Origin: Candidatus Woesearchaeota archaeon
GTDB lineage: Archaea; Nanobdellota; Nanobdellia; Pacearchaeales; GW2011-AR1
Direction of reading: 5' to 3'
Assembly: GCA_964547875.1 (NCBI GenBank)
Contig: CAZJPE010000002.1
Span: 42,130-106,129, forward strand
Length of the DNA: 64,000 nucleotides
Shown here in pieces: positions 32,198-63,864 of the stretch. Under the pieces are notes generated by a model, which worked only from the letters and a program-made list of their open reading frames with translations, was not told the DNA's origin and ran no database searches. Each line of letters begins with the position of its first letter. Within the stretch, counting starts at the first letter, position 1. The translations under genes were made by a program, and so were the position numbers.

Positions 32198-32226
32198 GAT
32201 TATAATTAAATTATTTAGTTTATAAA

Positions 32227-47832: not shown

Positions 47833-48555
47833 ATGAGATTATCAAACGTTTTAACGCCTATTGACACAACAATGAAGAATTTTGATTTTTCAAAGGTTAT
47901 TGTAAATAAACCATGGGGATATGAATATTTGGCATATGCAAACAAGAATATTGCTATCTGGATAATGTACATAAAGAAAAATTTCTGCAATTCCATGCAC
48001 TGCCATCTTGAGAAAAAAACTAATCTCATGCTGCTATCTGGAAAAGCTGTTTTTTCAACTCTTCAAGAAGGGCATGTGATAAAAGAGGGGGACATAATTG
48101 CCATAGATAAAAAATCCTTCCATTCCACTCAAGCTATTTCTGACGAAGGCATTTTTGTAATGGAGATTGAAAATCCTGTCAACAAAGTTGACTTATTGAG
48201 GCTGTCTGACGAATACGGCAGGGAAACAAAGGGCTATGAATCTAAAAATGAAATTTCACGCAATATAGACAGTTATAATGCTGTTTTCTTTGAGAATGAA
48301 GAATTTGATAAAGCAAAGAGAATCGGGAACATGGGCCTTTATTTCAAAAAATTTGAAGATGATAGAGAATTGATAGAGTACATGAACAGCAATAATGAAT
48401 CCATAAATGCTGTTGTTGAGGGGACAATTATCAGTGATATTTCTGGCGAGATGATTATGCCAGGGAAGTTTTTTTCAAATAATCATCCTGAAAATAAAAA
48501 TATAAAAATTCTAGAAAAGCCTTTAATTTTGCTTTCTATTTCAAGAAGAGATTAA
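47833..48555 (+). CDS. Cupin-domain protein (type II PMI / ManC C-terminal-like)
   Basis: KPWGYEYL...SMHCHLEKKTNLMLLSGKAVF. The ORF track starts at 47773 and overlaps the upstream gene; the ATG at 47833 is preferred. Confidence 0.55.
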   Translation: MRLSNVLTPIDTTMKNFDFSKVIVNKPWGYEYLAYANKNIAIWIMYIKKNFCNSMHCHLEKKTNLMLLSGKAVFSTLQEGHVIKEGDIIAIDKKSFHSTQAISDEGIFVMEIENPVNKVDLLRLSDEYGRETKGYESKNEISRNIDSYNAVFFENEEFDKAKRIGNMGLYFKKFEDDRELIEYMNSNNESINAVVEGTIISDISGEMIMPGKFFSNNHPENKNIKILEKPLILLSISRRD

Positions 48556-50591
48556 AATCTATTCTTTGAAATCCAGCTCTTTACTCCCTCTGATTCAAAT
48601 CTTACCTCCATTACCTCTGGAGAGCCTGCATTCTTCAACGCCCTTGCCAAATCATTTCTTTTTTTAGGGGAATGGAAGAATAAAAGATAGCCTCCATCTC
48701 CTGCTCCGAGAAGTCTCCCTCCATATGCGCCATTCTTTAATGCGCATTCGTATAATTTGTCCACGAAAGAATTTGAGATATTGTCGCTTAATTTTTTCTT
48801 GATTTCCCACGTTTCGCTCATTATTCTTCCAAATAATTCCAGCCTGCTGGTTAATAAGGCTTCTTTTATCTCCTCACTAAGTTCTTTCAAGCGAAATAGA
48901 GATTTTGTTTTTTCTGATTCGTCTTTCATGAAAAACGCCTCCTGCCTTTTATGAATATCTCCAGAATTGTGCGTGCGCCCTATATAACAAAGGAGCAGAT
49001 GATTCTCAAGCTCGTCAATTACTTCTTGCTTTAATTTCAATGGATAAACCAATGATTTGTCTTTTTCAAATTCTATGTAATTAAATCCTCCAACTGCAGA
49101 CGCATACTGATCCTGCCAGCCCCCTTTAATCTTCAGTTCTTCTCTTTCAACCTTATAAGCTAATTTTGCAATAGTATAATCGTCATGCTTATAATCCATT
49201 AACTGATCCAGCAGGCTTATTATCAGCACTGACAAGCTTGCTGACGAGCCTAATCCTCTTCCAGGAGGCACGTCACTTGCTACATATAATTCCAAGCCGA
49301 ATTCAGGATTCATTAGTTTTATTGCTGCCTTAATTAAGTCAAGCCTGCCGTCATAAACAAGCTCTTTAACAGAATTGGCAAGTATAATCCCTCCAAATTC
49401 CGAGTCAATAATTATTTTTTTATCTGCTCTTTTTATCAAGGTTGCGCTACAATATTTTTTAATTGTAGAATTTATGACACATCCCCCATATTTTTCAAAA
49501 AAATAAGGAATATCTGTTCCGCCGCCAGCGAAACTTATTCTTAATGGCACCCTGCCTCTTACAACAGGGAATTTTTCAGTTGTTATTTTCTCAATTCTAA
49601 ACTGCACATCCTTGACTCTCCCTTCATTATCTATAATTGGAAGATGATTGATGCCTGAAAATAATAATTCAGATATTCTTTCTTTTGTATCGTCGTGCTT
49701 TCCTGTAATTGGATCTCTGATCATGATAGATTTAACATCATCATCTATTTTTCCATTTCTTAAGATATGCTCCTTAATTATCCTATCATTGATAATGCCA
49801 ACGAGCTTTTCATTTTTATCTACAACCAAACCTAAATCTATTCCTGTTTTAGATATTTTCCTCATTATATCGCTTATTTTATTATGCTCTCTTACAAAAA
49901 GCCCTTTTATAATTCCCTCTTTAAATTCTTTGTAAGTTTCTGGCAAACCTATGTCAATAAAATAGCCTTCGTTTTTAAAGCACCATAATAAACCTTCTTT
50001 TGATAATTTGGGAAATATTTCCTTTTCCAAAGAGACATTTTTTTCAGGCTCTATATAATCAAAAATAATTGGCTCAAATAAATATGCTCCAACATTTATC
50101 AATCCCTTATTATTTTCTGCGCCTTTTTCTAAAAAGTCCAAAATTCTATCTCCGCTAATAGAAATTCTTCCGCCTCTGGAAGTATCTAGTACTTCTGTTG
50201 CCGCAATTGAGAACTTGCTTTTCTTTGTTTTATGAAATTCCAAAAATTTTTTTAAATCAATCTCAAAGTATGAATCTCCGTTTAATACCAAGAAGGTATC
50301 GTCAATATACCTCTCGGCTTTTTTTACTGCGCCTGCTGTTCCAAGAGGCACCTCTTCTTCAGAATATGTTATATTAACTCCCCATCTCTTTCCTTGACCA
50401 AAATAAGATTTTATTTTATCAGCCATATGGTGAACTGCGAGTATTAGTTCTTCTATACCCTGCTCTTTCAAAAATCTTATTTGATACTCTAAGAATGGCT
50501 TGCCTGCAATAGGAGCCATTGGCTTTGGCAAATCTGTGACTTCGGATCTTAAACGCGTTCCAAACCCGCCAGCTAGGATAACTGCCTTCAT
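48552..50591 (-). CDS. Fused sugar-1-P nucleotidyltransferase, CBS pair and GHMP kinase (HddC-CBS-HddA-like, Fkp-like order)
   Basis: 679 aa. N-terminus MKAVILAGGFGTRLRS (NTP_transferase), a mid CBS pair, and a C-terminal GHMP motif PPGRGLGSSASL. Confidence 0.8.
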   Translation of the reverse strand: MKAVILAGGFGTRLRSEVTDLPKPMAPIAGKPFLEYQIRFLKEQGIEELILAVHHMADKIKSYFGQGKRWGVNITYSEEEVPLGTAGAVKKAERYIDDTFLVLNGDSYFEIDLKKFLEFHKTKKSKFSIAATEVLDTSRGGRISISGDRILDFLEKGAENNKGLINVGAYLFEPIIFDYIEPEKNVSLEKEIFPKLSKEGLLWCFKNEGYFIDIGLPETYKEFKEGIIKGLFVREHNKISDIMRKISKTGIDLGLVVDKNEKLVGIINDRIIKEHILRNGKIDDDVKSIMIRDPITGKHDDTKERISELLFSGINHLPIIDNEGRVKDVQFRIEKITTEKFPVVRGRVPLRISFAGGGTDIPYFFEKYGGCVINSTIKKYCSATLIKRADKKIIIDSEFGGIILANSVKELVYDGRLDLIKAAIKLMNPEFGLELYVASDVPPGRGLGSSASLSVLIISLLDQLMDYKHDDYTIAKLAYKVEREELKIKGGWQDQYASAVGGFNYIEFEKDKSLVYPLKLKQEVIDELENHLLLCYIGRTHNSGDIHKRQEAFFMKDESEKTKSLFRLKELSEEIKEALLTSRLELFGRIMSETWEIKKKLSDNISNSFVDKLYECALKNGAYGGRLLGAGDGGYLLFFHSPKKRNDLARALKNAGSPEVMEVRFESEGVKSWISKNRF

Positions 50592-50662
50592 TTTTACTCT
50601 TTTTTGCTCCTCATTTTATAAAGCCGTATCTGGATAATATATAAACATTATGAGAAAATAGT

Positions 50663-51250
50663 CTATACTTTATTCTTTAAGATTATATTTGCAACTGCGT
50701 CGTAAAGATCTGATGCATGAAACGATGGCTCTATATCAATTAGATTTTCATTGCCTTTGCCCCCATATCCTGTTTTCACAAGAATTGTTTTGCACCCTGC
50801 AGACTTACCTGCATAAATATCACTCATTTTATCTCCAATGATATAACATCCAGATAAATCTTTTATGTTAAAATCTTTTTGCGCTTGCAGAATCATTCCT
50901 GGTTTTGGCTTCCTGCATTCACATTCTTTAGTGTAGATTGGATTATTTCCCTTGGGATGATGGGGGCAAAAATATATTTTATCCAATTTCGCTCCTTTTT
51001 CGTTTAACAATTCTCTCATGTAATTATTTAAATTCTCCACGTCATTTTGTGTGCAAATTCCTTTTGCTATAGCGGATTGATTCGAGATAATTATTATTCT
51101 ATAATTATTTTTGTTTAATAATTTTATTGCGTCTATTGTTTTATCAATCAGCTTAAAATCTTCCCTTCTATGAAGATGAATCCTTTCTTCGCAAATAACG
51201 CCATCTCTATCAAGAAAAACTACTTTCTCCATTATTATTGCTTTTGTCAT
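50663..51250 (-). CDS. gmhB: D-glycero-D-manno-heptose 1,7-bisphosphate phosphatase
   Basis: FLDRDGVI, SNQSAIAKG, YFCPHHP...CECRKPKPGM, IGDKMSD and VKTG motifs match E. coli GmhB almost motif for motif. Confidence 0.88.
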   Translation of the reverse strand: MTKAIIMEKVVFLDRDGVICEERIHLHRREDFKLIDKTIDAIKLLNKNNYRIIIISNQSAIAKGICTQNDVENLNNYMRELLNEKGAKLDKIYFCPHHPKGNNPIYTKECECRKPKPGMILQAQKDFNIKDLSGCYIIGDKMSDIYAGKSAGCKTILVKTGYGGKGNENLIDIEPSFHASDLYDAVANIILKNKV

Positions 51251-52302: not shown

Positions 52303-52304
52303 TC

Positions 52305-54277: not shown

Positions 54278-55090
54278 TTGGACATTTTATATAAAAATAT
54301 GGATGGGAAAACTATTAAATGCGTCTCTATTGCTGAAAAACCGAGCTGTTTTGGAATTGAATTTCATAATAAAGGATATGAATTTTTTGGCTTAAATTAT
54401 GTTTATATTCCGCTTAAAGTAACCTCTAACAATCTTGAATCTACTATTCAACTTGTGAGGGAAAATTTCAAGGGATGCGGTGTTTCTATGCCTTATAAAA
54501 TAGAGGTTATAAAATACCTTGATGAGCTTGACGAATCTGCGGAAAAAGTTGGAGCTGTCAATACTATACTTAATAATGGACGATTAAAGGGATTTAATAC
54601 TGATTATTACGGGGCAAGAAGCGCGTTAAAAAATACACTAGAAATTGAAGGAAAAGATATTTTAATGATAGGGGCAGGAGGGGCTGCTCGTGCAATTGGA
54701 CATGCTGTAAAGGACTTGGATGGAAGGCTGTGGATTACAAACAGAACAGAGGCGAGGGCAAATGAATTGGCTTATATTTTGCGGGCTAAAACAATTCAAT
54801 GGCAAGAACGTAATTCATTTAATGCTTATTTGCTAATTAATGCCACAAGCATTGGCTTTAATAATATAAATGAATCTCCATTATTGAATGAATCTATTTC
54901 AAATTATGAGGCAGTGATGGATATTGTGCTTACAAGCGATGCTCAAAAAACCAGATTAATAAGAGAAGCAGAATCAAAGATGAAGATTGTAATTCCTGGA
55001 AGGACTATGACGATTTATCAGGCTGCAAAGCAATTTTATATCTATACGGAAAAGAAACTTCCAGAAGAATTTTTAAATAAATTTATATAG
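54278..55090 (+). CDS. Shikimate/quinate 5-dehydrogenase (AroE) family protein
   Basis: 270 aa. GAVNTI...GFNTDYYG and IGAGGAARAI Rossmann motif. Confidence 0.7.
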   Translation: MDILYKNMDGKTIKCVSIAEKPSCFGIEFHNKGYEFFGLNYVYIPLKVTSNNLESTIQLVRENFKGCGVSMPYKIEVIKYLDELDESAEKVGAVNTILNNGRLKGFNTDYYGARSALKNTLEIEGKDILMIGAGGAARAIGHAVKDLDGRLWITNRTEARANELAYILRAKTIQWQERNSFNAYLLINATSIGFNNINESPLLNESISNYEAVMDIVLTSDAQKTRLIREAESKMKIVIPGRTMTIYQAAKQFYIYTEKKLPEEFLNKFI

Positions 55091-55109
55091 ATTTATGCAG
55101 GAGAATTTT

Positions 55110-55805
55110 ATGGATTATAAAGTGTGTATTTTGGCTGCGGGAATAGGGAGTAGAATGCTTGAATTTACAAAAACCTTTAATAAGGTTTTACTTCCTATTC
55201 AAGGAAAGCCTGTTATTTGCCATATAATTGAAAAATTTCCTGAAAATATTGGGATTATTATAGCTGTTGGATACAAAAAAGAAGGAGTTATTGATTATTT
55301 GAAAACTGCTTATCCAAATAGAAAATTTAATTTTGTAAACGTGGGCAAATACGAAGGTGTTGGAACTGGCCCTGGATATTCTTTACTAAAATGCAAAGAA
55401 TATTTACAATGCCCATTTATTCAGTTTGCCGGGGATACATTAGTAAGGGAAGAAATTCCTTTCCCTAACAAAAACTGGTTTGGCGTTGCAGACGTTAAAA
55501 ATACTGAGAGATTTTGCTCTGTAAAGATTATGGGCGATAAAATAATAAGAATTGACGATAAAATAAAGAATGATAATAAACATGCTTTTATTGGCTTAGC
55601 TGGAATAAAGGATTATGACATTTTTTGGAGCGCATTGGAGAAAGATAAAAAATTTATTGCAGAGGAGTTACAAGTTTCTAATGGGTTTAGAGAACTGATA
55701 AATAAGGATTTACACTCTAAAAGATTTACATGGTTTGACACTGGAACATGGGAAGCTTATGATTATACGATAAAAAATTATCCAGATGGAGAATCTTATT
55801 CTTAG
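55110..55805 (+). CDS. Sugar-phosphate nucleotidyltransferase (LicC/MurU-like), short paralog
   Basis: MDYKVCILAAGIGSRM... Homologous along its whole length to the N-terminal half of 59037..60680, and the first 34 nt are identical. The ORF track starts at 55095. Confidence 0.7.
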   Translation: MDYKVCILAAGIGSRMLEFTKTFNKVLLPIQGKPVICHIIEKFPENIGIIIAVGYKKEGVIDYLKTAYPNRKFNFVNVGKYEGVGTGPGYSLLKCKEYLQCPFIQFAGDTLVREEIPFPNKNWFGVADVKNTERFCSVKIMGDKIIRIDDKIKNDNKHAFIGLAGIKDYDIFWSALEKDKKFIAEELQVSNGFRELINKDLHSKRFTWFDTGTWEAYDYTIKNYPDGESYS

Positions 55806-55859
55806 AGATTAAAGCATAAAAATATTTATAAACAATAATTGTAAATTTAATTAAATAAA

Positions 55860-56336
55860 ATGATAAAAAATTTTGTTTTGGACGTTGATGGCGTTATGAC
55901 GACAGGGCATTTTATTTATTCGGCAGAAGGAAAAGCGCTTAAGATTTTCGGACCTCATGACGCAGATGGATTGAAATTGCTCAAAGACAAATTGAACGTA
56001 TCTTTCATAACTGCTGACAAAAAAGGATTTGCCATATCAAAGAAGAGAATAGAAGACTTAGGTTTTCAAATTGAACTCATTTCTGAGCAAGACAGATATA
56101 ATTATGTCAAGGAAAAATTCGGATTTGAAAATACTGCATTCATGGGCGATGGAATCTTTGACGCTCAATTAATCAAGGATTGCAAATTTGGTATAGCTCC
56201 TGCAAATGCCAGGCCAGAGGCGAGAGAAGCAGCAGATTTTATTACGCCATCAAAATCTGCCGAAGGAGCAGTGTGCGATGCGTGCTTGGAGATAAAAAAG
56301 AGATTTTTAGATAAAGCAGAAGACAATAATGCTTAA
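55860..56336 (+). CDS. KdsC-family HAD phosphatase (sugar-acid phosphate phosphatase-like)
   Basis: 158 aa. LDVDGVMTTG, ITADKK and FMGDGIFDAQL fit the YrbI/KdsC subfamily. Confidence 0.75.
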   Translation: MIKNFVLDVDGVMTTGHFIYSAEGKALKIFGPHDADGLKLLKDKLNVSFITADKKGFAISKKRIEDLGFQIELISEQDRYNYVKEKFGFENTAFMGDGIFDAQLIKDCKFGIAPANARPEAREAADFITPSKSAEGAVCDACLEIKKRFLDKAEDNNA

Positions 56337-56348
56337 ATATACAAAATA

Positions 56349-57149
56349 ATGATTCTCGCAATGGAATTATCCTTAATAGACAAGACTGAAAGATATAGGT
56401 TTGAAAAAATAGAAAGAAATCCTGATTATTTCCATGAAAGAAAGGAATTTTCCACAGTAGATGAAATAAGAACTTTATTTTTGCATTATGGAAGTCTAGG
56501 AATTAATGTTGAATCAAATGGAAAGAAAAATATGTATGCTTTAAAAGCGGGCGAAGGTTTTATATTTGGACCGAATTTAAGATATAACTTATCCTGCGAT
56601 TCTAGGATTTTTGCAGTGCAATCTAGCTCTCAAATTGCAGAAGGTAAAATAATTGAGATTTTAGACAAAGGAGATGAAAAAGAGGAATCTGAATTGGGCC
56701 CGTTTAAGCTGGTTAGAAATCCAAAAAGAGTGAATAAACCTTGGGGGCATGAATTATGGATCAGCTGGTTTAGAGACTATCATGTTTTAAAGCAGATAGG
56801 CATGAAGGCAGGAAATATGTCAAGTTTGCAGCTACACGGACGCAAATTAGAAACTAATTATCTAGTTAAAGGGGAGGCAGACGTTATAGATGGCTATCCT
56901 ATGGATTTGAGCTTGAGCGAGGACGAGATGAAAAATAAAATAGGCGATGTTGATTTGTCTGAATATACTAACAGGAAAAAAGCAGGAATGCATTGGACTT
57001 CTCGTCCAGGAATTGTGCATAGAGTAATTTCTGTTGCAGATTATATTGCTTATGAGACATCAACGCCTGAATTAGATGATGTTATAAGACTTAGTGATGT
57101 TTCTGGAAGGCAGTCTGGAAGGATAGACTCAGAGCATAAATTGTCTTAG
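56349..57149 (+). CDS. Cupin-domain protein (type II PMI-like)
   Basis: 266 aa. NKPWGHELWIS...SSLQLHGRKLETNYLVKGEADV. Confidence 0.55.
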   Translation: MILAMELSLIDKTERYRFEKIERNPDYFHERKEFSTVDEIRTLFLHYGSLGINVESNGKKNMYALKAGEGFIFGPNLRYNLSCDSRIFAVQSSSQIAEGKIIEILDKGDEKEESELGPFKLVRNPKRVNKPWGHELWISWFRDYHVLKQIGMKAGNMSSLQLHGRKLETNYLVKGEADVIDGYPMDLSLSEDEMKNKIGDVDLSEYTNRKKAGMHWTSRPGIVHRVISVADYIAYETSTPELDDVIRLSDVSGRQSGRIDSEHKLS

Positions 57150-57181
57150 AAGAATACCATATAGGTAGAATGATAACGTAT

Positions 57182-57276: not shown

Positions 57277-57347
57277 TAAGTGATGTTTTCGTAAGAAAAA
57301 GTGCAATGTCACAAGCGAAGCGCAGAGTGCCTGCAACTATTATTTTC

Positions 57348-57361
57348 ATGGGTCGGCTCGC
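57348..57361. repeat. Left copy of a perfect 14-bp GC-rich inverted repeat (atgggtcggctcgc)
   Basis: The reverse complement, gcgagccgacccat, occurs at 58505..58518. Confidence 0.6.
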
Positions 57362-57884
57362 CCTTTTTATCAAAGAAAAGTTTAAAAGGTATCTTCTATA
57401 GGGAAAAATATGAAAAACGAAATATTACGTGGAGAATATAGAGAACCTTGGGTATTATAGTTATAATCATAAAATAGTTGATCCTGACTACCTTAAGATA
57501 AAGCAAAGAGGTATAAATGGAGAGATTGGTAAGCATCCTGATTTTAATTTTAAAAAATTTACCAAAAATCAACATAAAATGATTGAAGAAATTTTAAGAG
57601 AAATGCCAATAAGTCTGCAAGCAAAAGAGGTTGAAACTGGAAAAAGAAAGAGAAATGCAAGATAAACCAGTAGGATATGGAGAATCTTTTATTGTTAATG
57701 ATAGAACTTTTATTAACCCATATGGGAATGAAGTAGAAGTGTACTATCTAATGCTTAGTAGAAAAAGCTCCTTAGGAAATGATGTATTCAGAACTATTGA
57801 ATTGCATCTTGGTGTGCCACGCTCAGATTTTTTTGACTTCTAAATCACCAGAAACCTTAAATACTTACATTTCTTACAAGTAAT

Positions 57885-58145
57885 ATGCGAGAAGAAATAA
57901 GGGAAATAAGAACTGTGAAAATAACAAGAAAGGGACAGATAAGTATTCCCTCAGCGGTCAGAGCGAGAGCTGGTTTTGAAGAAGGCGCAAAGGTTAATGT
58001 TATTGCCTACGATGATAGAGTTGAATTAAGACCTATGAAAAAAGAAAAAATTAGTGAAGCTATGATGTGCTATATAATGTCAGAAGAAGCTTTAGCAAAA
58101 AATTGGGATACTCCAGAAGAGGATGAAGCATGGAAAGACTTGTGA
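57885..58145 (+). CDS. AbrB/MazE-family antitoxin (SpoVT_AbrB swapped-hairpin domain)
   Basis: 86 aa. KITRKGQISIPSAVRARAGFEEGAKV, with an acidic C-terminus. Overlaps the downstream toxin gene. Confidence 0.6.
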   Translation: MREEIREIRTVKITRKGQISIPSAVRARAGFEEGAKVNVIAYDDRVELRPMKKEKISEAMMCYIMSEEALAKNWDTPEEDEAWKDL

Positions 58146-58462
58146 AGGGAGATGTTGTTGTTTTAGACTTTCCATATACAGATTTATCAAAAACTAAAAA
58201 GAGACCAAGTCTTATTGTTGCTAATTTGAAAGGAGATAATATTATTCTTTGTCAAATTACTGGGCAACCAAGACCTGACCCTGATTTGATTAATCTGAAA
58301 AAAGAAGATTTCCAGACTGGTGGTTTGCATAGAGAGAGTTTTATAATGTCCTCTTTTTTATTTACGATTCACAAGTCAAAAATCAATTATGCGGCTGGAA
58401 AAATCAAGCAAGAAAAAATAGAAGAAGTTGAAAAGAAACTTTGTGAGATTTTTACAAGATAA
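58130..58462 (+). CDS. MazF/PemK-family toxin (endoribonuclease)
   Basis: 110 aa. GDVVVLDFPYTDLSKTKKRPSLIVAN...ILCQITGQ matches the MazF N-terminal signature. Confidence 0.65.
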   Translation: MERLVKGDVVVLDFPYTDLSKTKKRPSLIVANLKGDNIILCQITGQPRPDPDLINLKKEDFQTGGLHRESFIMSSFLFTIHKSKINYAAGKIKQEKIEEVEKKLCEIFTR

Positions 58463-58504
58463 GTTTCTTGCTGAAAGCGAAACTATTTGTGGCGTCAGCC
58501 ACTT

Positions 58505-58518
58505 GCGAGCCGACCCAT
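58505..58518. repeat. Right copy of the 14-bp inverted repeat (gcgagccgacccat)
   Basis: Perfect reverse complement of 57348..57361. 10 of 14 positions are G/C in a genome of about 30% GC. Confidence 0.6.
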
Positions 58519-58634
58519 ATTTATCCTTGTAGGTATTTCACTTAACTATGGTTAAGAATAAAAGGATAAAAAGAAAATGGCATTGATTATTTTGGTTAAT
58601 ATTATTAATAATCTTAATTTATGTTTTATATAAA

Positions 58635-58952
58635 TTACTTCAATAAAAATCTCTTCTTCCAATCAAATACGGTTTTTCTTGTTATTTTGACCTTAAAAGT
58701 ATGATTTAGATAAAGGGTTATATTGCCAAGACTGGTTTTCTTTTTCAATAACTCGAGAGCTGTTTTAATCATTGCTGGCGGATAACGGAATTTTTTAAAC
58801 ATTCCGGGAGTAAATCTTCTTTTACATTTCCTGCATTTATATATTTGTTTTATGGAATTAAGGTTTTTTCTTAGCTGTATAACATAAGTATCATTAGAGG
58901 CACAATAAAGGCAAGACATTAGATATTCTGATTGAATAGATAAATCTTTCAT
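58635..58952 (-). mobile_element. IS1 InsA-like / IS1595-like transposase N-terminal zinc-ribbon plus HTH ORF (probable IS remnant)
   Basis: 105 aa. CLYCASND...KQIYKCRKCKRRFT follows the CxxC-x(n)-QRYxCxxCxxxF InsA pattern, then an HTH. No catalytic transposase ORF lies next to it. Confidence 0.45.
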
Positions 58953-59036
58953 TATAATGAAAGACGAGAATTTTATTTAAATTTATCGTTAACTAAACAA
59001 AAATTTAAATAGTGTCCTCTTTTATTAATAAAAAAG

Positions 59037-60680
59037 ATGGATTATAAAGTGTGTATTTTGGCTGCGGGAAAAAATACAAATGTTAGTTATGCGAGAGATT
59101 TTCATATAAGTTTATTGCCTGTAGGGACAAAATCAGCATTAACTAGGATTATTGAAAAGTTCCCTTTAAATGTAGAGATAATAATTGCTGTGGGATATAA
59201 TAGCCATTTGATAAAAGATTTCAGTGATATAACTTTTTCTAATAGGAAGATTAGAATTGTAGAAATTGATAATTATTCAGGGCCCGGTAGTGGACCTGGG
59301 AGAACACTTTTAGCATGTAAGTCACATCTAAACTGCCCATTTATATTCACTGCCGCCGACACGATAGTAGGAGATGAAATTCCAATCCCTAATAAAAACT
59401 GGATTGGTATATCGCATGTTTCTGATTCAACGAATTATTGTGTCGCTGAAGTAGAAAATAGTAATGTAACAAAGTTCTATGATAAAATGGAAACTTCTAT
59501 CTTATTAAAAGCATGTAAAAACTACAGAACAATTTTAAACAACGCTTTTATTGGCATTGCTGGCGTTCTTGATTATAATGTTTTCTGGAAAGAGATTGAG
59601 AGAGACCAGCATCTCATAAAAAAAGAGCTGCAAGTTTCTAATGGCCTTGCAGGGTTAATTCCGCATAAGCTTGAGGCAATATCATTCTTTAATTGGTTTG
59701 ATATAGGAAATGAGACAGGATATAATTTTGCGAACAGATTCTTTGAGAAAAACAAGATTATAGCAAAACCAGAAGAATTTATTTATTTTGAGGATAGAAA
59801 AGTAATAAAATATTTTTCAGATAAGGAGATAGTAAGGGAGAGAATAAATAGGGCATCAAAATTAAAAAATATTGTTCCCGAGATTATTCAATCCAAGGAT
59901 AATTTTTACGCTTATGATTTTGTCGAAGGAGAGACACTGGCAAAAATTAATGATATAAGCATATTCAAACAATTCTTAGATTTCTGCAAAGAAACAATAT
60001 GGAAAAGAGCAAACTTAAACGCAGAAGAGATGTCAGATTTCAAGAGCCTGTGCATTAACTTTTATAGACATAAGACCTTAGAGAGAATTCAAAAGTTTTT
60101 CAGGGAAAGCGATATTAAGGATAAAGAGGAAATAATTAACGGAGAGAAAGTCCTGACATTGGGAGAAATGCTAAGAGAGATAGACTGGAAAAAAATTTCA
60201 GAAGGCGTACCTGTTGTCTTTCACGGGGATTTACAGCCTGAAAATATAATTGTCTGTGATAAAGGATTCCAATTAATTGACTGGAGGCACAGCTTTGCAG
60301 GCAATGTAGACTATGGGGATATTTATTACGATTTTGCAAAGTTGCATCATGCTCTTATTGTTACCCATGAAATTATAAGAAATAATCAATTTGAAATAAA
60401 AAGAGATAAGAATTACGTGAATTATGATTTTTTGAGAAAAAACAATTTGATGGAATACAAAGACGTTCTTGAGAATTTTATAGAAAAAGAAGGATATGAC
60501 TTAAAAAGATTGAATATATTGACTTCATTGATATACTTAAATATTGCGCCCCTGCACCATTACCCATACAACGAGTTTCTTTATTATCTTGGCAAATATT
60601 CTTTGTTTAAGGAGATGAATAACAATAATCCTTATATAATAAAAAATCAGCAATTAACAGTTAAGATTCAGGACAGATAA
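59037..60680 (+). CDS. Bifunctional sugar-phosphate nucleotidyltransferase plus APH/choline-kinase-fold kinase (AmgK-MurU-like or LicC-LicA-like fusion)
   Basis: 547 aa. The N-terminal 230 aa are paralogous to 55110..55805. C-terminal HGDLQPENIIV and LIDWRHSFAGNVDYGDIYYDFA motifs (Brenner and IDWE-like). Confidence 0.7.
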   Translation: MDYKVCILAAGKNTNVSYARDFHISLLPVGTKSALTRIIEKFPLNVEIIIAVGYNSHLIKDFSDITFSNRKIRIVEIDNYSGPGSGPGRTLLACKSHLNCPFIFTAADTIVGDEIPIPNKNWIGISHVSDSTNYCVAEVENSNVTKFYDKMETSILLKACKNYRTILNNAFIGIAGVLDYNVFWKEIERDQHLIKKELQVSNGLAGLIPHKLEAISFFNWFDIGNETGYNFANRFFEKNKIIAKPEEFIYFEDRKVIKYFSDKEIVRERINRASKLKNIVPEIIQSKDNFYAYDFVEGETLAKINDISIFKQFLDFCKETIWKRANLNAEEMSDFKSLCINFYRHKTLERIQKFFRESDIKDKEEIINGEKVLTLGEMLREIDWKKISEGVPVVFHGDLQPENIIVCDKGFQLIDWRHSFAGNVDYGDIYYDFAKLHHALIVTHEIIRNNQFEIKRDKNYVNYDFLRKNNLMEYKDVLENFIEKEGYDLKRLNILTSLIYLNIAPLHHYPYNEFLYYLGKYSLFKEMNNNNPYIIKNQQLTVKIQDR

Positions 60681-60681
60681 A

Positions 60682-61365
60682 ATGGCAATAGATAATGAAA
60701 GGCTATATGAGATGGCAGAATATGGCTTATTAAAGTTATATCTTCGAGAGAAGGAATCTGCATTAAAACATTTTCCTATTCATGAGGTTATGCAGGCGAC
60801 AGATATGATATGGGAAACTTATAAAAAAGGTGGAACAGTTTACGCCTGCGGAAATGGTGGCAATGCTGCTTCTGTCGGCAATCTAATTACAGATCTGGCT
60901 AATCACTTATTTGTTACAGATGACAAATCAAAACCTCTTCCAGAAAATATTCAGAGATTAAGGACTGTTGATTTATGCTCTTCTGGAGCAGCTCTTACTG
61001 CTTATTTAAATGACTTTGGAAAAGAATACGTGTTTTCACAACAACTTATCTGCAATAGGGTTGCAGAGGGAGATACTTTGTTTGGCTTTAGCGGAAGCGG
61101 AACATCAGGAAATATAAGAAAAGCATGTGAGATTGCAAAAAAACACGGCGCTAAAACAATTTTAGTGACGAGAAATAGGAATGCTGTATTGGAAGAACTT
61201 ATTGACTTAAGCATTGTTTTTGAGGGACATTCGCAATTTCCAGGACAAATAGGAAGCAATGACTTTAATTTCCATTATGAAGATCTTGGCTTTGCCATGG
61301 CTCACATGATTACAGGGCTATTGAGAAAGAGGATTTATGACGAACATAATAGAATCAAATCTTGA
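60682..61365 (+). CDS. gmhA: SIS-domain sedoheptulose-7-phosphate isomerase-like
   Basis: 227 aa. GGTVYACGNGGNAASVG and GDTLFGFSGSGTSGNIRKACEIAKKHGAKTILVT align with the GmhA motifs. There is an insertion in the middle relative to E. coli GmhA. Confidence 0.65.
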   Translation: MAIDNERLYEMAEYGLLKLYLREKESALKHFPIHEVMQATDMIWETYKKGGTVYACGNGGNAASVGNLITDLANHLFVTDDKSKPLPENIQRLRTVDLCSSGAALTAYLNDFGKEYVFSQQLICNRVAEGDTLFGFSGSGTSGNIRKACEIAKKHGAKTILVTRNRNAVLEELIDLSIVFEGHSQFPGQIGSNDFNFHYEDLGFAMAHMITGLLRKRIYDEHNRIKS

Positions 61366-63133
61366 AGAAAAAGCAAGAGAGATAAGAAAAAGCCTGATAA
61401 CTGCGCTATATCACGCAGATTCAGGACATCCTGGATCTTCTCTATCATGGACAGACATAGCTGCTAGCTTATTTTTTAATGAGATAAATCTTGAAAAAGG
61501 GGATAGATTTATGCTATCCAAAGGACATGCAGTTCCAACTTTATACGCAATATTATGCATGAAAGGTTATGCAGATGAAAAGAGATTTGAAAAAGAACTA
61601 AGAAAGATTGGCAGTCCTTTTCAAGGGCATCCTGTAGCAGGCACTCTCCCGCATATTTATGCAAGCACAGGCTCATTAGGACAGGGCTTATCATTTGCCC
61701 TTGGCATGGCTGAAGCAAAGAAATTATCAAAACAAAATGAAAGAGTTTATGTTTTGCTTGGAGATGGAGAGCTTCAAGAGGGGCAGAATTGGGAGGCATT
61801 TCGATATGGCTGCAACAGGAAGATGGATAATTTAATTGCTATTATAGACAAGAATGGCTATCAGAATGATGCTGCTGTTGACGAAACTATGCCCTTAGGC
61901 AATTTAGAGCGACAATTAGAGAGCTTTGGCTGGAATGTGATAAAGGTAGATGGGCATAACTTTAACGAACTAAGGCAGGCTTATGCTAATGCAAAAAAGA
62001 TATTGGGAAAGCCAACAGCAATTATTGCAGAAACTGTGAAGGGAAAAGGAGTTAGGCATATAGAATCAAACAGGAAAAAACATAATGGGGCCATGACTGG
62101 AGAGGAATATGTAAACGCCATGCTTGATCTGGGAGTTAAGATTAAAGAACCGCCAATTAAATTCCAAGCTAAAAACAGCATAAACAACGAGCCTGCTTCT
62201 GGGATAAGAGATGCTTTTGGCGAGGCGTTAGCTGAAGCGGGAAAAGAATATGGCCGCCTAGTGGTTGTTGACTGCGATTTAGGAAGCGCTACAAAAACCC
62301 TTAAATTTAAGGAAAAGTTTCCTGAGAGATTTTTTCAAGTCGGAATTGCAGAGCAGCATGGAGTTAGTCTAGCAGCGGGATTGGCAAAGGAGGGCTATCG
62401 CCCTTTTATCTCAAGCTTTGGTGCATTTTTAACGCAGAGAGCAAAGGATCAAATAATGAATTCTGTCGCCTACAGCAATGCGGGCGTTGTGCTTGTTGGA
62501 AGCCATAGTGGATTAGCAATAGGAAAAGACGGAGCTACGCAAATGGGAATAGACGACATTAATGCCATGATGGCGATACCAAATATGGAAATTTATTCTC
62601 CAGCGAGCGCCGTAGAAATCAAGCAAGTTGTTAATTATCTTGTAAATGGAAATCAATTCGCATATCTAAGAACATCACGCAGACCTGTGCCCAATATACA
62701 CGACAATAACTACTCTTTTAATCCTGAAAGAGTAGATGTTATAAAAGACTGCGGGCGGGAAAATGGAATAAGCATAATGGCGACAGGCGACATGGTTTAT
62801 TATGCCCTCCAGGCTGCCAAAGAGCTGGAAAAAGAGATACCTTTAGATGTAATTAATTTTTGCAGATTAAAGCCAATTGACAGAGAGAGCGTAATTTCCT
62901 ACGCAAGAAGAAGAGCAGGGATAATTACATTGGAAGATCATAGCATTATCGGGGGGCTTGGCTCAAGAGTGTGCGAGATAATTGCAGAAGAGGGTCTTGG
63001 AAAGAGAGTTTTAAGGCAGGGATTGCGTGACTGCTTTGGGGAGAGCGGCGAGCCCGAAGATTTATATAAAAAACATAAGCTGGATATTGAAGGCATAAAA
63101 AATTCCATGAGAGAATTCTATTTAGAGACATAA
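61337..63133 (+). CDS. tkt: Transketolase, N-terminal and C-terminal sections fused in one 598 aa polypeptide
   Basis: DSGHPGSSLSWTDI and GHAVPTLYA (N-section TPP binding), GDGELQEG, the pyrimidine domain GIAEQHGVS, and a C-terminal domain. 29-bp overlap with the gmhA-like gene. Confidence 0.85.
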   Translation: MTNIIESNLEEKAREIRKSLITALYHADSGHPGSSLSWTDIAASLFFNEINLEKGDRFMLSKGHAVPTLYAILCMKGYADEKRFEKELRKIGSPFQGHPVAGTLPHIYASTGSLGQGLSFALGMAEAKKLSKQNERVYVLLGDGELQEGQNWEAFRYGCNRKMDNLIAIIDKNGYQNDAAVDETMPLGNLERQLESFGWNVIKVDGHNFNELRQAYANAKKILGKPTAIIAETVKGKGVRHIESNRKKHNGAMTGEEYVNAMLDLGVKIKEPPIKFQAKNSINNEPASGIRDAFGEALAEAGKEYGRLVVVDCDLGSATKTLKFKEKFPERFFQVGIAEQHGVSLAAGLAKEGYRPFISSFGAFLTQRAKDQIMNSVAYSNAGVVLVGSHSGLAIGKDGATQMGIDDINAMMAIPNMEIYSPASAVEIKQVVNYLVNGNQFAYLRTSRRPVPNIHDNNYSFNPERVDVIKDCGRENGISIMATGDMVYYALQAAKELEKEIPLDVINFCRLKPIDRESVISYARRRAGIITLEDHSIIGGLGSRVCEIIAEEGLGKRVLRQGLRDCFGESGEPEDLYKKHKLDIEGIKNSMREFYLET

Positions 63134-63340: not shown

Positions 63341-63568
63341 TTAGGCTTTATACTTACTAGCATTAATTATAGTTAATCCAACAATATTATCGCCTCTTTT
63401 ATGGAGAATGGTGTTCCCATCCATTACACTATTATCTGCATTTTGAGGCCTTGCAAAACTAATATAAAGCACGTCCGCTTCTTTATCATAGTCTATCCAC
63501 ATTTGCTTCGCTATCTTTACAAATTGTGGTATTATCTTCTCTATATTACTTATTATTTTTTCTTCCAT
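63341..63568 (-). CDS. DUF2283-family protein (putative antitoxin partner of DUF4258)
   Basis: 75 aa. IDYDKEADVLYISF motif. Overlaps the upstream DUF4258 gene. Confidence 0.55.
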   Translation of the reverse strand: MEEKIISNIEKIIPQFVKIAKQMWIDYDKEADVLYISFARPQNADNSVMDGNTILHKRGDNIVGLTIINASKYKA

Positions 63569-63864
63569 ATTATTTTTCTATCTTTTCTTACTCTATCAAT
63601 TTCTGAAGTCAAAAAGGCCGTTATAACAAAGCCATCTTTATTAGGGATTTCCCTATAAATAACAACAATATGCTTATTATTAAATCTTTTTGTTGCTAAA
63701 AATTCGCCTTCATCACCCTCTATTATTTCTTCTGGCTCATTAATAGTTTCTAAAACACAATCGCTAAGTCCAGACATATAATCATGAGATTCTATTATGT
63801 GAAACCATCTTTCTTCAGTTAGTCTGATTTTAATCTTATTTTTAGAAATTGTAAAACCTATCAT
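63553..63864 (-). CDS. DUF4258-family protein (putative toxin)
   Basis: 103 aa. Size and organisation are typical of DUF4258/DUF2283 pairs. Confidence 0.55.
   Translation of the reverse strand: MIGFTISKNKIKIRLTEERWFHIIESHDYMSGLSDCVLETINEPEEIIEGDEGEFLATKRFNNKHIVVIYREIPNKDGFVITAFLTSEIDRVRKDRKIIWKKK

What the first reader, a model, noticed from the sequence alone, without database searches (positions are those of the whole stretch)
60682..63133. GmhA-like isomerase translationally coupled to a fused full-length transketolase: a dedicated sedoheptulose-7-P supply
The SIS-domain GmhA-like gene (CGNGGNAAS, GFSGSGTSGNI) overlaps by 29 bp a 598 aa transketolase that carries both halves in one chain (GHPGSSLS, GDGELQEG, Pyr and C-terminal domains). 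Transketolase produces sedoheptulose-7-P, the GmhA substrate, and archaeal transketolases are usually split into two genes.

Taken with the kinase/transferase fusion, GmhB, the HldC-like gene at 41719 and the GT9 at 19173, the window encodes every step from central metabolites to a heptosylated glycan. Glycan loci normally borrow sedoheptulose-7-P from core metabolism rather than pairing it with a pathway-specific transketolase.
Basis: partly seen in the sequence, partly recalled or inferred. Interest (0 to 1): 0.6.

Follow-up and report, generated by a model that had tools for sequence, protein, structure and literature searches.

The report
Dedicated transketolase–isomerase sugar-building gene cassette
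The overlapping isomerase and transketolase genes are real and form the front end of a conserved, uncharacterised cassette found in many archaea and bacteria that probably builds a nucleotide-activated seven-carbon (or larger) sugar, but the isomerase is not an ordinary GmhA.

Summary
A 227-aa SIS protein (60682-61365) overlaps by 29 nt a 598-aa single-chain transketolase (61337-63133).

The pairing is not a local accident. In all 11 related loci inspected, an SIS homologue lies with a transketolase and a bicupin. These loci come from DPANN, Asgard and ammonia-oxidising archaea, CPR bacteria, a gammaproteobacterium and two actinomycetes. Usually a nucleotidyltransferase–APH-kinase fusion, a KdsC-like phosphatase and an AroE-like or SDR reductase are present too. 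Natural fusions (NT–APH–SIS, bicupin–NT–APH, bicupin–SIS) tie these proteins to one pathway.

Cassette transketolases form their own clade (100/100 bootstraps), apart from generic transketolases. They replace the phosphate-binding Ser with Ala. The fused form is a derived subclade; all other cassette copies are split.

The SIS protein has the GmhA fold. However, GmhA's "completely conserved" zinc ligands H/E/Q/H are invariantly N/D/E/H here. Q→E inactivates true GmhA. The protein scores 64 bits against a 209-bit GmhA cut-off.

The cassette also carries its own kinase, phosphatase and nucleotidyltransferase, and it occurs without HddA/GmhB elsewhere.

Best reading: a third, non-orthologous route to an NDP-heptose-like sugar with a dedicated chain-building transketolase. 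The product is unknown.

The parts
54278..55090 (+). AroE-like (shikimate-dehydrogenase-fold) oxidoreductase, a cassette member. It is probably a keto-sugar or sugar-phosphate reductase, not a shikimate dehydrogenase.
   Evidence: Pfam Shikimate_dh_N/Shikimate_DH. It falls below all NCBIfam aroE cut-offs (205 against 252). The catalytic Lys and Asp are kept, but the N-terminal S-x-S carboxylate motif of M. jannaschii AroE aligns with C-F-G. The PDB hit list includes 5-ketofructose reductase 7cok. Homologues lie inside the cassette in L007, L008, L010, L012, L088 and L089. A classical SDR replaces it in L002, L005 and L006.
55095..55805 (+). Stand-alone nucleotidyltransferase, a paralogue of the N-terminal domain of the 547-aa fusion.
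   Evidence: Pfam NTP_transferase/NTP_transf_3. NCBIfam gives weak matches to sugar-1-P nucleotidyltransferases. In phmmer it cross-hits the NT-APH fusions at 1e-41 to 1e-65. Stand-alone orthologues are present in L002 and L005.
55860..56336 (+). KdsC-type HAD phosphatase, the presumed sugar-phosphate phosphatase of the cassette.
   Evidence: NCBIfam KdsC-phosphatase subfamily, 66.9 bits and below cut-off. Orthologues (130-207 bits) lie in L006, L010, L012, L088 and L089.
56349..57149 (+). Bicupin related to mannose-6-phosphate-isomerase cupins. With SIS and TK it is one of the three invariant core members.
   Evidence: Weak Pfam MannoseP_isomer and NCBIfam GMP_PMI matches. Two cupin domains are seen in the L009 orthologue. 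An orthologue is present in all 11 loci; in L089 it is the bicupin domain of the P0131 fusion, not a separate gene. It is fused to NT-APH in P0131 and P0137 and to SIS in P0344.
57885..58462 (+). MazE/MazF toxin-antitoxin pair inserted inside the cassette. It is not part of the pathway.
   Evidence: Pfam MazE_antitoxin and PemK_toxin. It is absent from this position in all related loci, where the bicupin directly precedes NT-APH.
59037..60680 (+). Fusion of a sugar-1-phosphate-type nucleotidyltransferase (about residues 1-235) with an APH/protein-kinase-like small-molecule kinase (about residues 245-535).
   Evidence: Pfam APH (8 of 8 members). The AF2 model has pLDDT 91.9. The Foldseek top 50 are all GalU/RmlA/MurU/HddC-type enzymes matching the N-terminal domain. 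The kinase motifs HGDxQPEN and IDWR are invariant. The family has 1199 hits. Orthologues lie next to SIS in 9 of 11 loci. It is fused to SIS in P0129.
60682..61365 (+). Divergent GmhA-fold SIS isomerase, the 'N/D/E/H' family.
   Evidence: gmhA TIGR00441 scores 64 bits against a cut-off of 209. Best PDB match is 1x94, 1e-16. The AF2 model has pLDDT 94.3, and the top Foldseek hit is B. pseudomallei GmhA with target-normalised TM-score (TMt) 0.87. The GmhA zinc ligands H61/E65/Q172/H180 are replaced by invariant N67/D71/E200/H208. The phosphate loop S137-G-S-G-x-S142 is kept. There are two family-specific insertions, at 82-92 and 183-193. It is the only SIS ORF in the window.
61337..61365 (+). 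29-nt overlap of the SIS stop region with the TK start, with an AAGAGG just upstream. This is a possible translational coupling site.
   Evidence: Overlaps of 4-17 nt occur in six related loci. The coupling itself was not tested.
61337..63133 (+). Single-chain transketolase of the cassette-specific clade, formed by fusion of split N and C genes.
   Evidence: NF004559 scores 516 bits against a cut-off of 488. Best PDB matches are human TK (315 bits) and the C. hydrogenoformans split TK. The linker is about residues 262-288. Cassette TKs are monophyletic in 100/100 bootstraps, and the fused forms are nested among split ones. ThDP, catalytic His and Arg residues are conserved. The phosphate-binding Ser (human S345) is Ala318 in 16 of 18 cassette TKs, against Ser in 54 of 56 generic TKs.
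48552..51250 (-). Canonical HddC-CBS-HddA fusion and GmhB. This is a separate GDP-heptose-type set, a possible second consumer of the SIS product. It has no GmhA of its own in the window.
   Evidence: HddA NF049969 274.7 bits and HddC NF049965 181 bits, both below their equivalog cut-offs; GmhB TIGR00213 153 bits against a cut-off of 149.6. No homologues lie near the cassette in nine other loci.

Best explanation
The SIS and transketolase genes are the first two enzymes of a conserved, horizontally spread cassette. In the window it spans 54278-63133 and is interrupted by a MazEF insertion. The cassette builds a nucleotide-activated higher-carbon sugar from central sugar phosphates.

Proposed order (every step is inferred, none was assayed):
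1. The dedicated transketolase transfers a C2 unit from fructose-6-P or xylulose-5-P to an aldose phosphate. The acceptor is most likely ribose-5-P, which would give sedoheptulose-7-P.
2. The GmhA-fold SIS enzyme converts this ketose phosphate to an aldose phosphate. Its metal site is remodelled (Asn/Asp/Glu/His).
3. The APH-type kinase and the KdsC-like phosphatase move the phosphate to C1. This could run through a 1,7-bisphosphate, or through the free sugar.
4. The fused nucleotidyltransferase makes the NDP-sugar.
5. The bicupin and the AroE-like (elsewhere SDR) oxidoreductase isomerise, epimerise or reduce an intermediate, which sets the final stereochemistry.

This has the same logic as the GmhA/HddA/GmhB/HddC route to GDP-heptose. 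The differences are non-orthologous kinase and phosphatase enzymes and a pathway-specific chain-building enzyme. The lincosamide octose pathway likewise has its own transaldolase.

In this window the SIS product may also feed the neighbouring HddC-HddA/GmhB set.
For: Conserved gene neighbourhood. SIS, TK and bicupin co-occur in 11 of 11 other loci. NT-APH is present in 9 of 11. A reductase and a HAD phosphatase are present in most. The loci span six phylum-level groups.

Gene fusions link the parts:
- NT-APH-SIS (P0129)
- bicupin-NT-APH (P0131, P0137)
- bicupin-SIS (P0344)

The TK is a distinct lineage:
- It shows a sharp identity drop, from 56-72% (fused cassette TKs on SIS-bearing contigs) to 45% or less (generic TKs).
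- Cassette TKs are monophyletic 100/100 against 55 generic TKs and the characterised C. hydrogenoformans split TK.
- The closest generic TK, from a Nanoarchaeota genome, sits among unrelated housekeeping genes.
- The TK keeps all ThDP and catalytic residues.

The SIS protein has the GmhA fold and keeps the sugar-phosphate loop.

The NT domain is structurally a sugar-1-P nucleotidyltransferase.

Context points to glycan synthesis. Flanking genes are glycosyltransferases and flippases. These include a GT9 (heptosyltransferase family) about 1.2 kb downstream of the cassette in L088, after a GT4 gene, and a GT9 plus AglB in the window.

Precedent exists for a dedicated chain-building enzyme plus an isomerase: LmbR/LmbN (PMC5854111, PMC7014725).
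Against: - No enzyme was assayed, and the product is unknown.
- Two isomerase-fold proteins (SIS and bicupin) are present where the classical route needs one. No step explains this yet.
- The SIS metal ligands differ from GmhA at three of four positions, and Q175E kills true GmhA. Activity on sedoheptulose-7-P therefore cannot be assumed.
- The kinase's regiochemistry (anomeric or other) is not established. Its nearest structural relatives could not be retrieved.
- The two actinomycete loci lack NT-APH. There, at least, the core trio may yield a sugar phosphate rather than an NDP-sugar.
- The classical SDRs that replace the AroE-like enzyme resemble glucose-1-dehydrogenases, which would fit an oxidised or reduced (acid or alditol) product equally well.
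- The TK tree is neighbour-joining on p-distances and contains only one generic split TK.
Confidence: 0.55

Rival explanations
1. The SIS protein is a functional sedoheptulose-7-P isomerase (GmhA) that makes D-glycero-D-manno-heptose-7-P for the classical HddA/GmhB/HddC GDP-heptose route at 48552-51250. The transketolase is only a local S7P supply.
For: The HddC-HddA fusion, GmhB, a 4,6-dehydratase and small cupins form a GDP-(6-deoxy)heptose-like set with no GmhA of its own. The only GmhA-like ORF in 64 kb is 60682-61365. The SIS fold and best matches are GmhA. A GT9 is present. LPS heptose is known to depend on transketolase (Eidels & Osborn 1971, cited in PMC5387315).
Against: [quoted passage not shown] Q175E is inactive in true GmhA. 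The protein scores 64 bits against a 209-bit cut-off. The cassette carries its own kinase, phosphatase and NT, and occurs without HddA or GmhB in nine other loci. The two gene sets are 9 kb apart on opposite strands. A canonical GmhA could lie elsewhere in the genome, which was not seen.
Confidence: 0.2
2. The cassette makes something other than an NDP-aldoheptose. One option is an eight-carbon sugar, with the TK acting on a hexose-6-P as in the octulose-forming plant TKs. Another is a CDP-activated alditol or ketose phosphate (TarI/TarJ- or AbpA/AbpB-like), with the reductase and the second NT as the key steps.
For: The cassette TK clade has lost the phosphate-binding Ser. The SIS has a shortened catalytic carboxylate (Glu to Asp) and two insertions at the active-site rim, which is compatible with a different or longer substrate. 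Specialised TK paralogues that make octulose-8-P exist (PMC5854111). A reductase (AroE-like or SDR) and a second NTP_transf_3-type NT accompany the cassette. One relative fuses NT-APH to a GatZ/KbaZ-like aldolase-family domain.
Against: There is no direct evidence for chain length. The NT domain looks like sugar-1-P enzymes rather than IspD/TarI. GT9 genes accompany the cassette in two loci. The Ser-to-Ala change is a single conservative-size substitution.
Confidence: 0.15
3. The transketolase is simply the organism's housekeeping pentose-phosphate enzyme and happens to sit next to a sugar isomerase.
For: DPANN genomes are small, and no second TK lies in the 64-kb window. The enzyme has a complete catalytic apparatus and passes an NCBIfam transketolase model.
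Against: TK-SIS linkage is conserved in 11 of 11 loci, including large-genome bacteria. Cassette TKs form a clade apart from generic TKs. DPANN relatives encode generic TKs of 37-45% identity in non-glycan contexts. The overlap with the SIS gene is also conserved.
Confidence: 0.05

Closest known systems
GDP-D-glycero-alpha-D-manno-heptose pathway (GmhA, HddA, GmhB, HddC) and the ADP-heptose pathway (GmhA, HldE, GmhB, HldD)
   Same: The step logic is the same: ketose-phosphate isomerase of GmhA fold, kinase, phosphatase, nucleotidyltransferase. Both sit in glycan loci with GT9-family transferases. Both depend ultimately on transketolase-made sedoheptulose-7-P.
   Different: - The kinase has the APH/protein-kinase-like fold, not GHMP (HddA) or PfkB (HldE).
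- The phosphatase is KdsC-type, not GmhB-type.
- The isomerase has N/D/E/H instead of the H/E/Q/H zinc site and fails the gmhA model cut-off.
- A dedicated transketolase, a bicupin and a reductase are integral parts.
- The canonical HddA/GmhB set is present separately in the same window.
Lincosamide octose pathway (LmbR transaldolase, LmbN isomerase, then kinase, phosphatase and nucleotidyltransferase to GDP-octose)
   Same: A biosynthetic cluster carries its own pentose-phosphate-type C-C bond-forming enzyme. An isomerase follows it directly, and the product is then activated to an NDP-higher sugar (PMC5854111, PMC7014725; the later steps are from my own knowledge of Lin et al. 2014).
   Different: A transketolase (C2 transfer) is used instead of a transaldolase (C3 transfer). 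The cassette sits in glycan islands of archaea and CPR bacteria, not in an antibiotic cluster.
Type II phosphomannose isomerase / GDP-mannose pyrophosphorylase (AlgA/ManC/XanB)
   Same: A cupin isomerase is physically fused to a sugar-1-P nucleotidyltransferase. Bicupin-NT-APH fusions exist in this family, and the bicupin gives weak GMP_PMI matches.
   Different: The domain order is reversed. There is an extra kinase domain and no phosphomutase. Similarity is only marginal (E about 0.002-0.005).
AmgK-MurU and NahK-type salvage routes (APH-fold anomeric sugar kinase plus nucleotidyltransferase)
   Same: An APH-fold kinase is paired with a MurU/RmlA-like nucleotidyltransferase. MurU is among the structural matches.
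   Different: Here the two are fused and the substrate is made de novo by TK and SIS. Anomeric specificity of the kinase is not shown. This comparison rests on my own knowledge.
Split-gene transketolase of Carboxydothermus hydrogenoformans (PDB 6yaj/6yak) and human-type short transketolases
   Same: The best sequence matches have the same short architecture without the long insertions of E. coli or yeast TK. ThDP and catalytic residues are identical.
   Different: The C. hydrogenoformans TK falls outside the cassette clade. Cassette TKs carry Ala at the phosphate-binding Ser. The window's copy is a fusion of the two genes.
Octulose-forming transketolase paralogues TKT7/TKT10 of Craterostigma plantagineum
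   Same: They are a precedent for a specialised transketolase paralogue dedicated to making an unusual higher-carbon ketose phosphate (PMC5854111).
   Different: They are plant enzymes, not clustered with downstream genes, and there is no evidence that they are related beyond the family level.

Membership tests
GmhA (sedoheptulose-7-phosphate isomerase) orthologues | GmhA-type SIS fold | tested here: met
   The AF2 model has pLDDT 94.3. The Foldseek top 35 PDB hits are GmhA (plus DiaA), with target-normalised TM-score (TMt) up to 0.87-0.89.
GmhA (sedoheptulose-7-phosphate isomerase) orthologues | Zinc and catalytic tetrad His/Glu/Gln/His (B. pseudomallei H64, E68, Q175, H183), 'completely conserved amongst GmhA orthologues' (PMC5705639) | tested here: not met
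   N67/D71/E200/H208 are invariant in 37 aligned members and about 87 family members. The N-terminal pair is confirmed by two HMMER alignments to PDB GmhAs. Q175E is inactive in true GmhA.
GmhA (sedoheptulose-7-phosphate isomerase) orthologues | Score above the curated equivalog cut-off (TIGR00441 and NF001628, NF010546, NF010547) | tested here: not met
   It scores 64.4 bits against a cut-off of 209. The other three models give 49-62 bits against cut-offs of 265-320.
GmhA (sedoheptulose-7-phosphate isomerase) orthologues | Sugar-phosphate binding loop (E. coli S119-T120-S121-G-N-S124) and the N93-D94 motif | tested here: met
   S137-G138-S139-G140-T-S142 and N110-D111 are conserved. Thr120 is invariably Gly.
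GmhA (sedoheptulose-7-phosphate isomerase) orthologues | Converts sedoheptulose-7-P to D-glycero-D-manno-heptose-7-P | not testable with these tools
   This needs an enzyme assay or gmhA complementation.
KpsF/GutQ/KdsD arabinose-5-phosphate isomerases | SIS domain followed by tandem CBS domains (about 320 aa); best matches to API models | tested here: not met
   The protein is 227 aa with no CBS domain. No API model appears among the 13 NCBIfam hits, and GmhA models rank first.
Transketolase (EC 2.2.1.1) | Three-domain architecture, ThDP/Mg motif GDG...N, cofactor-activating Glu, catalytic His residues | tested here: met
   All three Pfam domains are present. NF004559 scores 516 bits against a cut-off of 488. 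H31, H64, H98, D143, N173, K235, H249, R291, E339, H390, D398 and R448 are conserved with generic TKs.
Transketolase (EC 2.2.1.1) | Phosphate-binding Ser (human S345, E. coli S385, yeast S386; residue role from my own knowledge) | tested here: not met
   It is Ala318 in the window. It is Ala in 16 of 18 cassette TKs (Pro in 2), against Ser in 54 of 56 generic TKs.
Split-gene transketolases | N-terminal (PP) and C-terminal (Pyr+C) halves encoded by two adjacent genes | tested here: not met
   The window has one 598-aa ORF with a linker of about 25 aa. All 11 related loci have two genes. Nine further fused cassette TKs are listed.
HddA/HddC/GmhB GDP-heptose pathway (as a member, for the 54278-63133 cassette) | GHMP-family heptose-7-P kinase and GmhB (histidinol-phosphatase-type HAD) phosphatase | tested here: not met
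   The cassette kinase is APH-fold. The cassette phosphatase is KdsC-type. True HddA/HddC/GmhB homologues are at 48552-51250 and are absent near nine other cassettes.
Shikimate dehydrogenase AroE (for 54278-55090) | Curated cut-off and the substrate-carboxylate-binding Ser-x-Ser motif | tested here: not met
   The best model scores 205 bits against a cut-off of 252. The SFS of M. jannaschii AroE aligns with CFG.

The most novel reading that the evidence does not exclude
The cassette is a third, non-orthologous route to a nucleotide-activated higher-carbon sugar, and its product is not the classical D-glycero-D-manno-heptose. It could be a C2-epimeric or otherwise re-configured heptose, or an octose. 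The carbon chain is built by a specialised transketolase clade that has lost the phosphate-binding serine. The ketose is processed by a new metal-site variant (Asn/Asp/Glu/His) of the GmhA fold together with a bicupin. The cassette has spread by horizontal transfer among DPANN, Asgard and ammonia-oxidising archaea, CPR bacteria, proteobacteria and actinomycetes.
Probability: 0.3. Interest if true: 0.7.

Novelty: new variant of a known kind. Interest (0 to 1): 0.55.

Why it matters
Surface glycans are the main interface of DPANN archaea and CPR bacteria with their hosts, yet their sugar chemistry is almost unknown.

This cassette would be a self-contained way to make an activated seven-carbon (or larger) sugar without relying on the cell's pentose-phosphate pathway. 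That is relevant for organisms with reduced metabolism.

It also supplies three enzymological novelties that can be tested directly:
- a transketolase clade tied to a glycan pathway
- a GmhA-fold isomerase whose metal site carries the very substitution (Gln to Glu) that kills classical GmhA
- an APH-type sugar kinase fused to its nucleotidyltransferase

The same core occurs in cultured actinomycetes, so it is experimentally reachable and might lead to new sugar-derived natural products.

For annotation, it shows that 'D-sedoheptulose 7-phosphate isomerase' labels on this family (JGI names) are unsafe.

Tried and rejected
- **KpsF/GutQ or hexulose-phosphate isomerase identity for the SIS protein.** Rejected: there are no CBS domains, and GmhA models and structures rank first.
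- **A second SIS/GmhA or a second TK in the window.** None was found by tblastn.
- **Genome-collection scan with the SIS alignment.** One of the two search patterns was generic (CGNGG), so 75 of 80 loci were ordinary GmhA.
- **The window's own 189-kb NCBI contig.** It was not returned by the look-up; only a 5-kb Logan contig came back. The rest of the genome could therefore not be searched for a housekeeping TK or a canonical GmhA.
- **Nearest structural relatives of the kinase domain.**
  - Foldseek's top 50 hits were all taken by the NT domain.
  - A profile search of PDB sequences with the kinase domain alone gave only chance-level hits.
  - Pfam gives only generic APH.
- **Literature searches** for transketolase together with GmhA, cupin, heptose or DPANN found no description of this cassette. 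The LmbR/LmbN primary paper was not held.
- **First tree attempt.** It timed out and was redone with a faster distance calculation.
- **True AroE for 54278, or a sugar-phosphate cyclase route to C7 cyclitols.** Rejected: the carboxylate-binding motif is absent and no DHQS-like gene is in the cassette.
- **Raw bit scores as evidence for a cassette TK clade.** Rejected as insufficient: distant cassette TKs score like generic ones. This is why the tree, with the C. hydrogenoformans TK as a control, was built.

Full report
**1. The observation**

- a 227-aa SIS-domain protein at 60682-61365
- a 598-aa transketolase (TK) at 61337-63133, on the same strand

They overlap by 29 nt. The overlap is not an artefact of start-codon choice. 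61337 is the first possible start of the TK frame. Similarity to other transketolases already begins at residue 7-9, while the SIS stop is at 61363-61365. A purine-rich AAGAGG lies 4 nt upstream of the TK ATG.

TK carries the N-terminal ThDP domain, the pyrimidine-binding domain and the C-terminal domain in one chain. It exceeds the curated cut-off of NCBIfam transketolase model NF004559 (516 against 488 bits).

The gene upstream (59037-60680, 547 aa) ends one nucleotide before the SIS ATG.

- an HddC-CBS-HddA fusion (48552-50591, minus strand)
- GmhB (50663-51250, minus strand)
- an rfaE-domain-II-like cytidylyltransferase-fold gene (41719)
- a GT9 (19173)

An AglB/STT3 oligosaccharyltransferase (1255-4011), together with homologues in Nanoarchaeota, Pacearchaeota and Woesearchaeota, indicates a low-GC DPANN-type archaeon.

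**2. The SIS protein has the GmhA fold but is not a GmhA orthologue**

Its best family and structure matches are GmhA. However, it reaches only 64 bits against a 209-bit equivalog cut-off and E = 1e-16 against the best PDB GmhA. An AlphaFold model built on 37 homologues is confident (pLDDT 94.3). It superposes best on Burkholderia pseudomallei GmhA, with target-normalised TM-score (TMt) 0.87 and 27% identity.

The defining zinc and catalytic tetrad of GmhA is His64/Glu68/Gln175/His183 in B. pseudomallei numbering. It is described as completely conserved among orthologues, and every mutant is impaired. Q175E is used as an inactive enzyme, D61A retains 6% activity and H64Q 14% (PMC5705639). The same site is found in N. 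gonorrhoeae GmhA (PMC5387315).

In the window's protein these positions are Asn67, Asp71, Glu200 and His208. The Asp61 equivalent is lost. This is not degeneration:
- the four residues are invariant across the family
- the sugar-phosphate loop (S137-G-S-G-x-S142) and the N110-D111 motif are kept
- two family-specific insertions (82-92 and 183-193) carry invariant residues: K82, S184, P187, G188, N193, N196 and H198

An exhaustive profile search of 1.84 billion cluster representatives finds only about 40 clusters of this family, against more than 7,000 GmhA-like clusters.

The protein does not cluster with KpsF/GutQ: it has no CBS domains, and API models are absent from the hit list. But it also does not carry the GmhA catalytic set. 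All four replacement residues are still metal ligands. A metal-dependent aldose-ketose isomerase with a different metal preference, substrate or stereochemical outcome is therefore the most economical inference.

**3. The pair belongs to a conserved cassette**

I inspected 11 loci that carry a member of this SIS family:
- an unclassified archaeon (L002)
- Pacearchaeota (L005)
- Zambryskibacteria (L006)
- Hodarchaeales (L007)
- a Nanoarchaeota single-cell genome (L008)
- Streptomyces (L009)
- Sedimenticola (L010)
- Actinoallomurus (L011)
- Nitrosopelagicus (L012)
- an unassigned 81-kb contig (L088)
- Micrarchaeota (L089)

In all 11, the SIS gene lies with a transketolase and with a homologue of the window's 266-aa bicupin (56349-57149). 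In 9 of 11 it also lies with a homologue of the 547-aa protein.

Most loci add two further genes. One is a KdsC-type HAD phosphatase, the homologue of 55860-56336. The other is either an AroE-like oxidoreductase (the homologue of 54278-55090) or a classical SDR.

L088 and L089 show the full colinear order: HAD, AroE-like, bicupin, NT-APH, SIS, TK-N, TK-C.

In the window the same set spans 54278-63133. It has an extra stand-alone nucleotidyltransferase (55095-55805), which is a paralogue of the fusion's N-domain. It is interrupted between the bicupin and the 547-aa gene by a MazE/MazF pair and a small zinc-ribbon ORF.

Natural gene fusions link the components independently of neighbourhood:
- NT-APH-SIS (P0129)
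- bicupin-NT-APH (P0131, P0137)
- bicupin-SIS (P0344)

Homologues of HddA/HddC or GmhB are absent from the nine loci scanned for them.

**4. The 547-aa protein**

Its C-terminal half is an APH/protein-kinase-like small-molecule kinase. The invariant motifs are HGDxQPEN and IDWR.

Its N-terminal half is structurally a sugar-1-phosphate nucleotidyltransferase. All 50 top Foldseek matches of a confident model (pLDDT 91.9) are of this kind: GalU, RmlA, ST0452, MurU, HddC or PntC.

The kinase's closest structural relatives could not be obtained. Phosphorylation at the anomeric carbon therefore remains an inference from the nature of the fused nucleotidyltransferase.

**5. The transketolase is a cassette-specific lineage, and the fusion is derived**

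The database search shows a sharp break. Nine other single-chain TKs are 56-72% identical, and six of them sit on contigs whose lengths match SIS-bearing or NT-APH-bearing contigs. After these come generic transketolases at 45% identity or less.

I built a neighbour-joining tree of 18 cassette TKs (10 fused, 8 split and concatenated), 55 generic TKs and the biochemically characterised split TK of Carboxydothermus hydrogenoformans. The cassette TKs are monophyletic in 100 of 100 bootstrap replicates. The fused forms are a subclade nested among split ones, and the C. hydrogenoformans enzyme falls outside. The window's chain joins the two halves by a linker of about 25 residues.

The closest generic TK comes from a Nanoarchaeota genome and lies among unrelated housekeeping genes. 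Relatives of this organism therefore do encode an ordinary TK.

All ThDP-binding, catalytic His and phosphate-binding Arg/His residues are conserved. The single column that discriminates the clades is window position 318. It is Ala in 16 of 18 cassette TKs, and Ser in 54 of 56 generic TKs. By the alignment this is human Ser345. From my own knowledge, that residue is one of the four that hold the substrate's phosphate (E. coli Ser385, yeast Ser386). This hints at altered acceptor handling but proves nothing about chain length.

The cassette TKs are split in all 11 related loci, but most generic archaeal TKs listed are single chains.

**6. How it most likely works**

The cassette reproduces the logic of the known NDP-heptose routes: isomerase, kinase, phosphatase, nucleotidyltransferase. 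It uses non-orthologous parts and adds its own chain-building enzyme. I propose the following order:
1. TK makes a ketose phosphate. This is most simply sedoheptulose-7-P, from ribose-5-P and fructose-6-P or xylulose-5-P.
2. SIS makes the aldose phosphate.
3. The APH kinase and the KdsC-like phosphatase relocate the phosphate to C1.
4. The fused transferase makes the NDP-sugar.
5. The bicupin and the AroE-like or SDR oxidoreductase adjust configuration or oxidation state.

What is shown:
- the conserved linkage, the gene fusions, the folds and the residue patterns
- glycan-locus contexts, including a GT9 about 1.2 kb downstream of the cassette in L088, after a GT4 gene

What is inferred:
- every substrate, the order of steps and the product

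One anatomical fact is not explained: two isomerase-fold proteins (SIS and bicupin) are present, and the classical pathway needs only one.

The AroE-like protein keeps the catalytic Lys and Asp but lacks the Ser-x-Ser carboxylate clamp. The shikimate-dehydrogenase fold is known to include a 5-ketofructose reductase (7cok). A keto-sugar reductase role is therefore plausible.

In this window the neighbouring set comprises HddC-HddA, GmhB, a 4,6-dehydratase and small cupins (48552-53044). It has no isomerase of its own.

**7. Comparison with what is known**

- The nearest pathway analogues are GmhA/HddA/GmhB/HddC and the lincosamide octose route. In the latter, a cluster-encoded transaldolase (LmbR) and isomerase (LmbN) build octose-8-P (PMC5854111, PMC7014725).
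- Specialised transketolase paralogues that make octulose-8-P are known in a resurrection plant.
- Cupin-nucleotidyltransferase fusions recall type II PMI-GMP enzymes.
- I found no description of this cassette in the literature held.

It fails the membership tests for GmhA orthologues (metal ligands, curated cut-off) and for the HddA/GmhB pathway. I therefore file it as a new variant of a known kind of system, not as a member of either.

**8. Verdict**

The product, whether heptose, heptose epimer or octose, is open.

Interest is moderate to good (0.55). The cassette is conserved, widely transferred and experimentally tractable, and it carries three unusual enzymes. Conceptually, however, it remains within sugar-nucleotide biosynthesis.

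Noticed in passing
window 57885-58462 (+) and 58635-58952 (-): A MazE/MazF toxin-antitoxin pair and a small zinc-ribbon ORF are inserted inside the cassette, between the bicupin and the NT-APH gene. In all related loci these two genes are adjacent.
   Followed up: partly
window 63341-63864 (-): A DUF2283 protein and a PBECR2-like (barnase/EndoU/RelE-like nuclease) protein form an overlapping pair directly downstream of the transketolase. This is probably a second toxin-antitoxin-like module.
   Followed up: no
window 45345-47236 (+), with 47283-47813: A pair of pyruvate-dehydrogenase-E1-alpha/beta-like ThDP enzymes lies in the glycan island, next to a DJ-1/PfpI protein. It is a second, unrelated ThDP-dependent C-C enzyme, and it might add a two-carbon branch to a sugar.
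   Followed up: no
window 48552-53044: This sub-locus holds an HddC-CBS-HddA fusion, GmhB, an NDP-sugar 4,6-dehydratase (51325-52302) and two small cupins (52305-53044). It resembles GDP-6-deoxyheptose pathways but has no GmhA of its own.
   Followed up: partly
window 29401-38002 (-): Four radical-SAM genes lie here, three with B12-binding domains, in a run of six minus-strand ORFs (two ORFs, 32227-33886, were not examined) inside the glycosylation island.
   Followed up: no
window 1255-4011, 8647-10530, 25109-26668: An AglB/STT3 oligosaccharyltransferase and two PMT_2/GT-C-type transferases are present. The whole window is an archaeal protein-glycosylation island.
   Followed up: no
L009 7259-14052 (Streptomyces sp. 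NPDC049881); L011 5862-10627 (Actinoallomurus soli): The actinomycetes carry a reduced core (TK-N, TK-C, bicupin, SIS) without the NT-APH gene. In Streptomyces it is followed by an MFS transporter, a TreT-like trehalose-synthase-type glycosyltransferase and a PhyH dioxygenase. This may be a small sugar-derived natural-product cluster.
   Followed up: partly
P0202 (903 aa); L089 15777-16577: One relative fuses NT-APH to a GatZ/KbaZ-like (tagatose-bisphosphate aldolase family) domain. The Micrarchaeota locus has a transaldolase/FSA gene about 2.7 kb from the cassette. Other C-C enzymes may substitute for or assist the transketolase in some variants.
   Followed up: no
window residue A318 of TK (nt 62288-62290): The only alignment column that separates cassette transketolases from generic ones is the phosphate-binding serine. 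It is replaced by alanine in 16 of 18 cassette TKs and by proline in 2.
   Followed up: yes
P0343 (379 aa), P0372, P0375, P0378: Tandem-SIS proteins, with two SIS domains in one chain, appear among the hits to the family profile. P0343 scores highest of all (430 bits).
   Followed up: no
window 53160-54266 (+): A 368-aa ORF lies directly upstream of the cassette. It has no Pfam or NCBIfam match and no homologue near the other cassettes.
   Followed up: no
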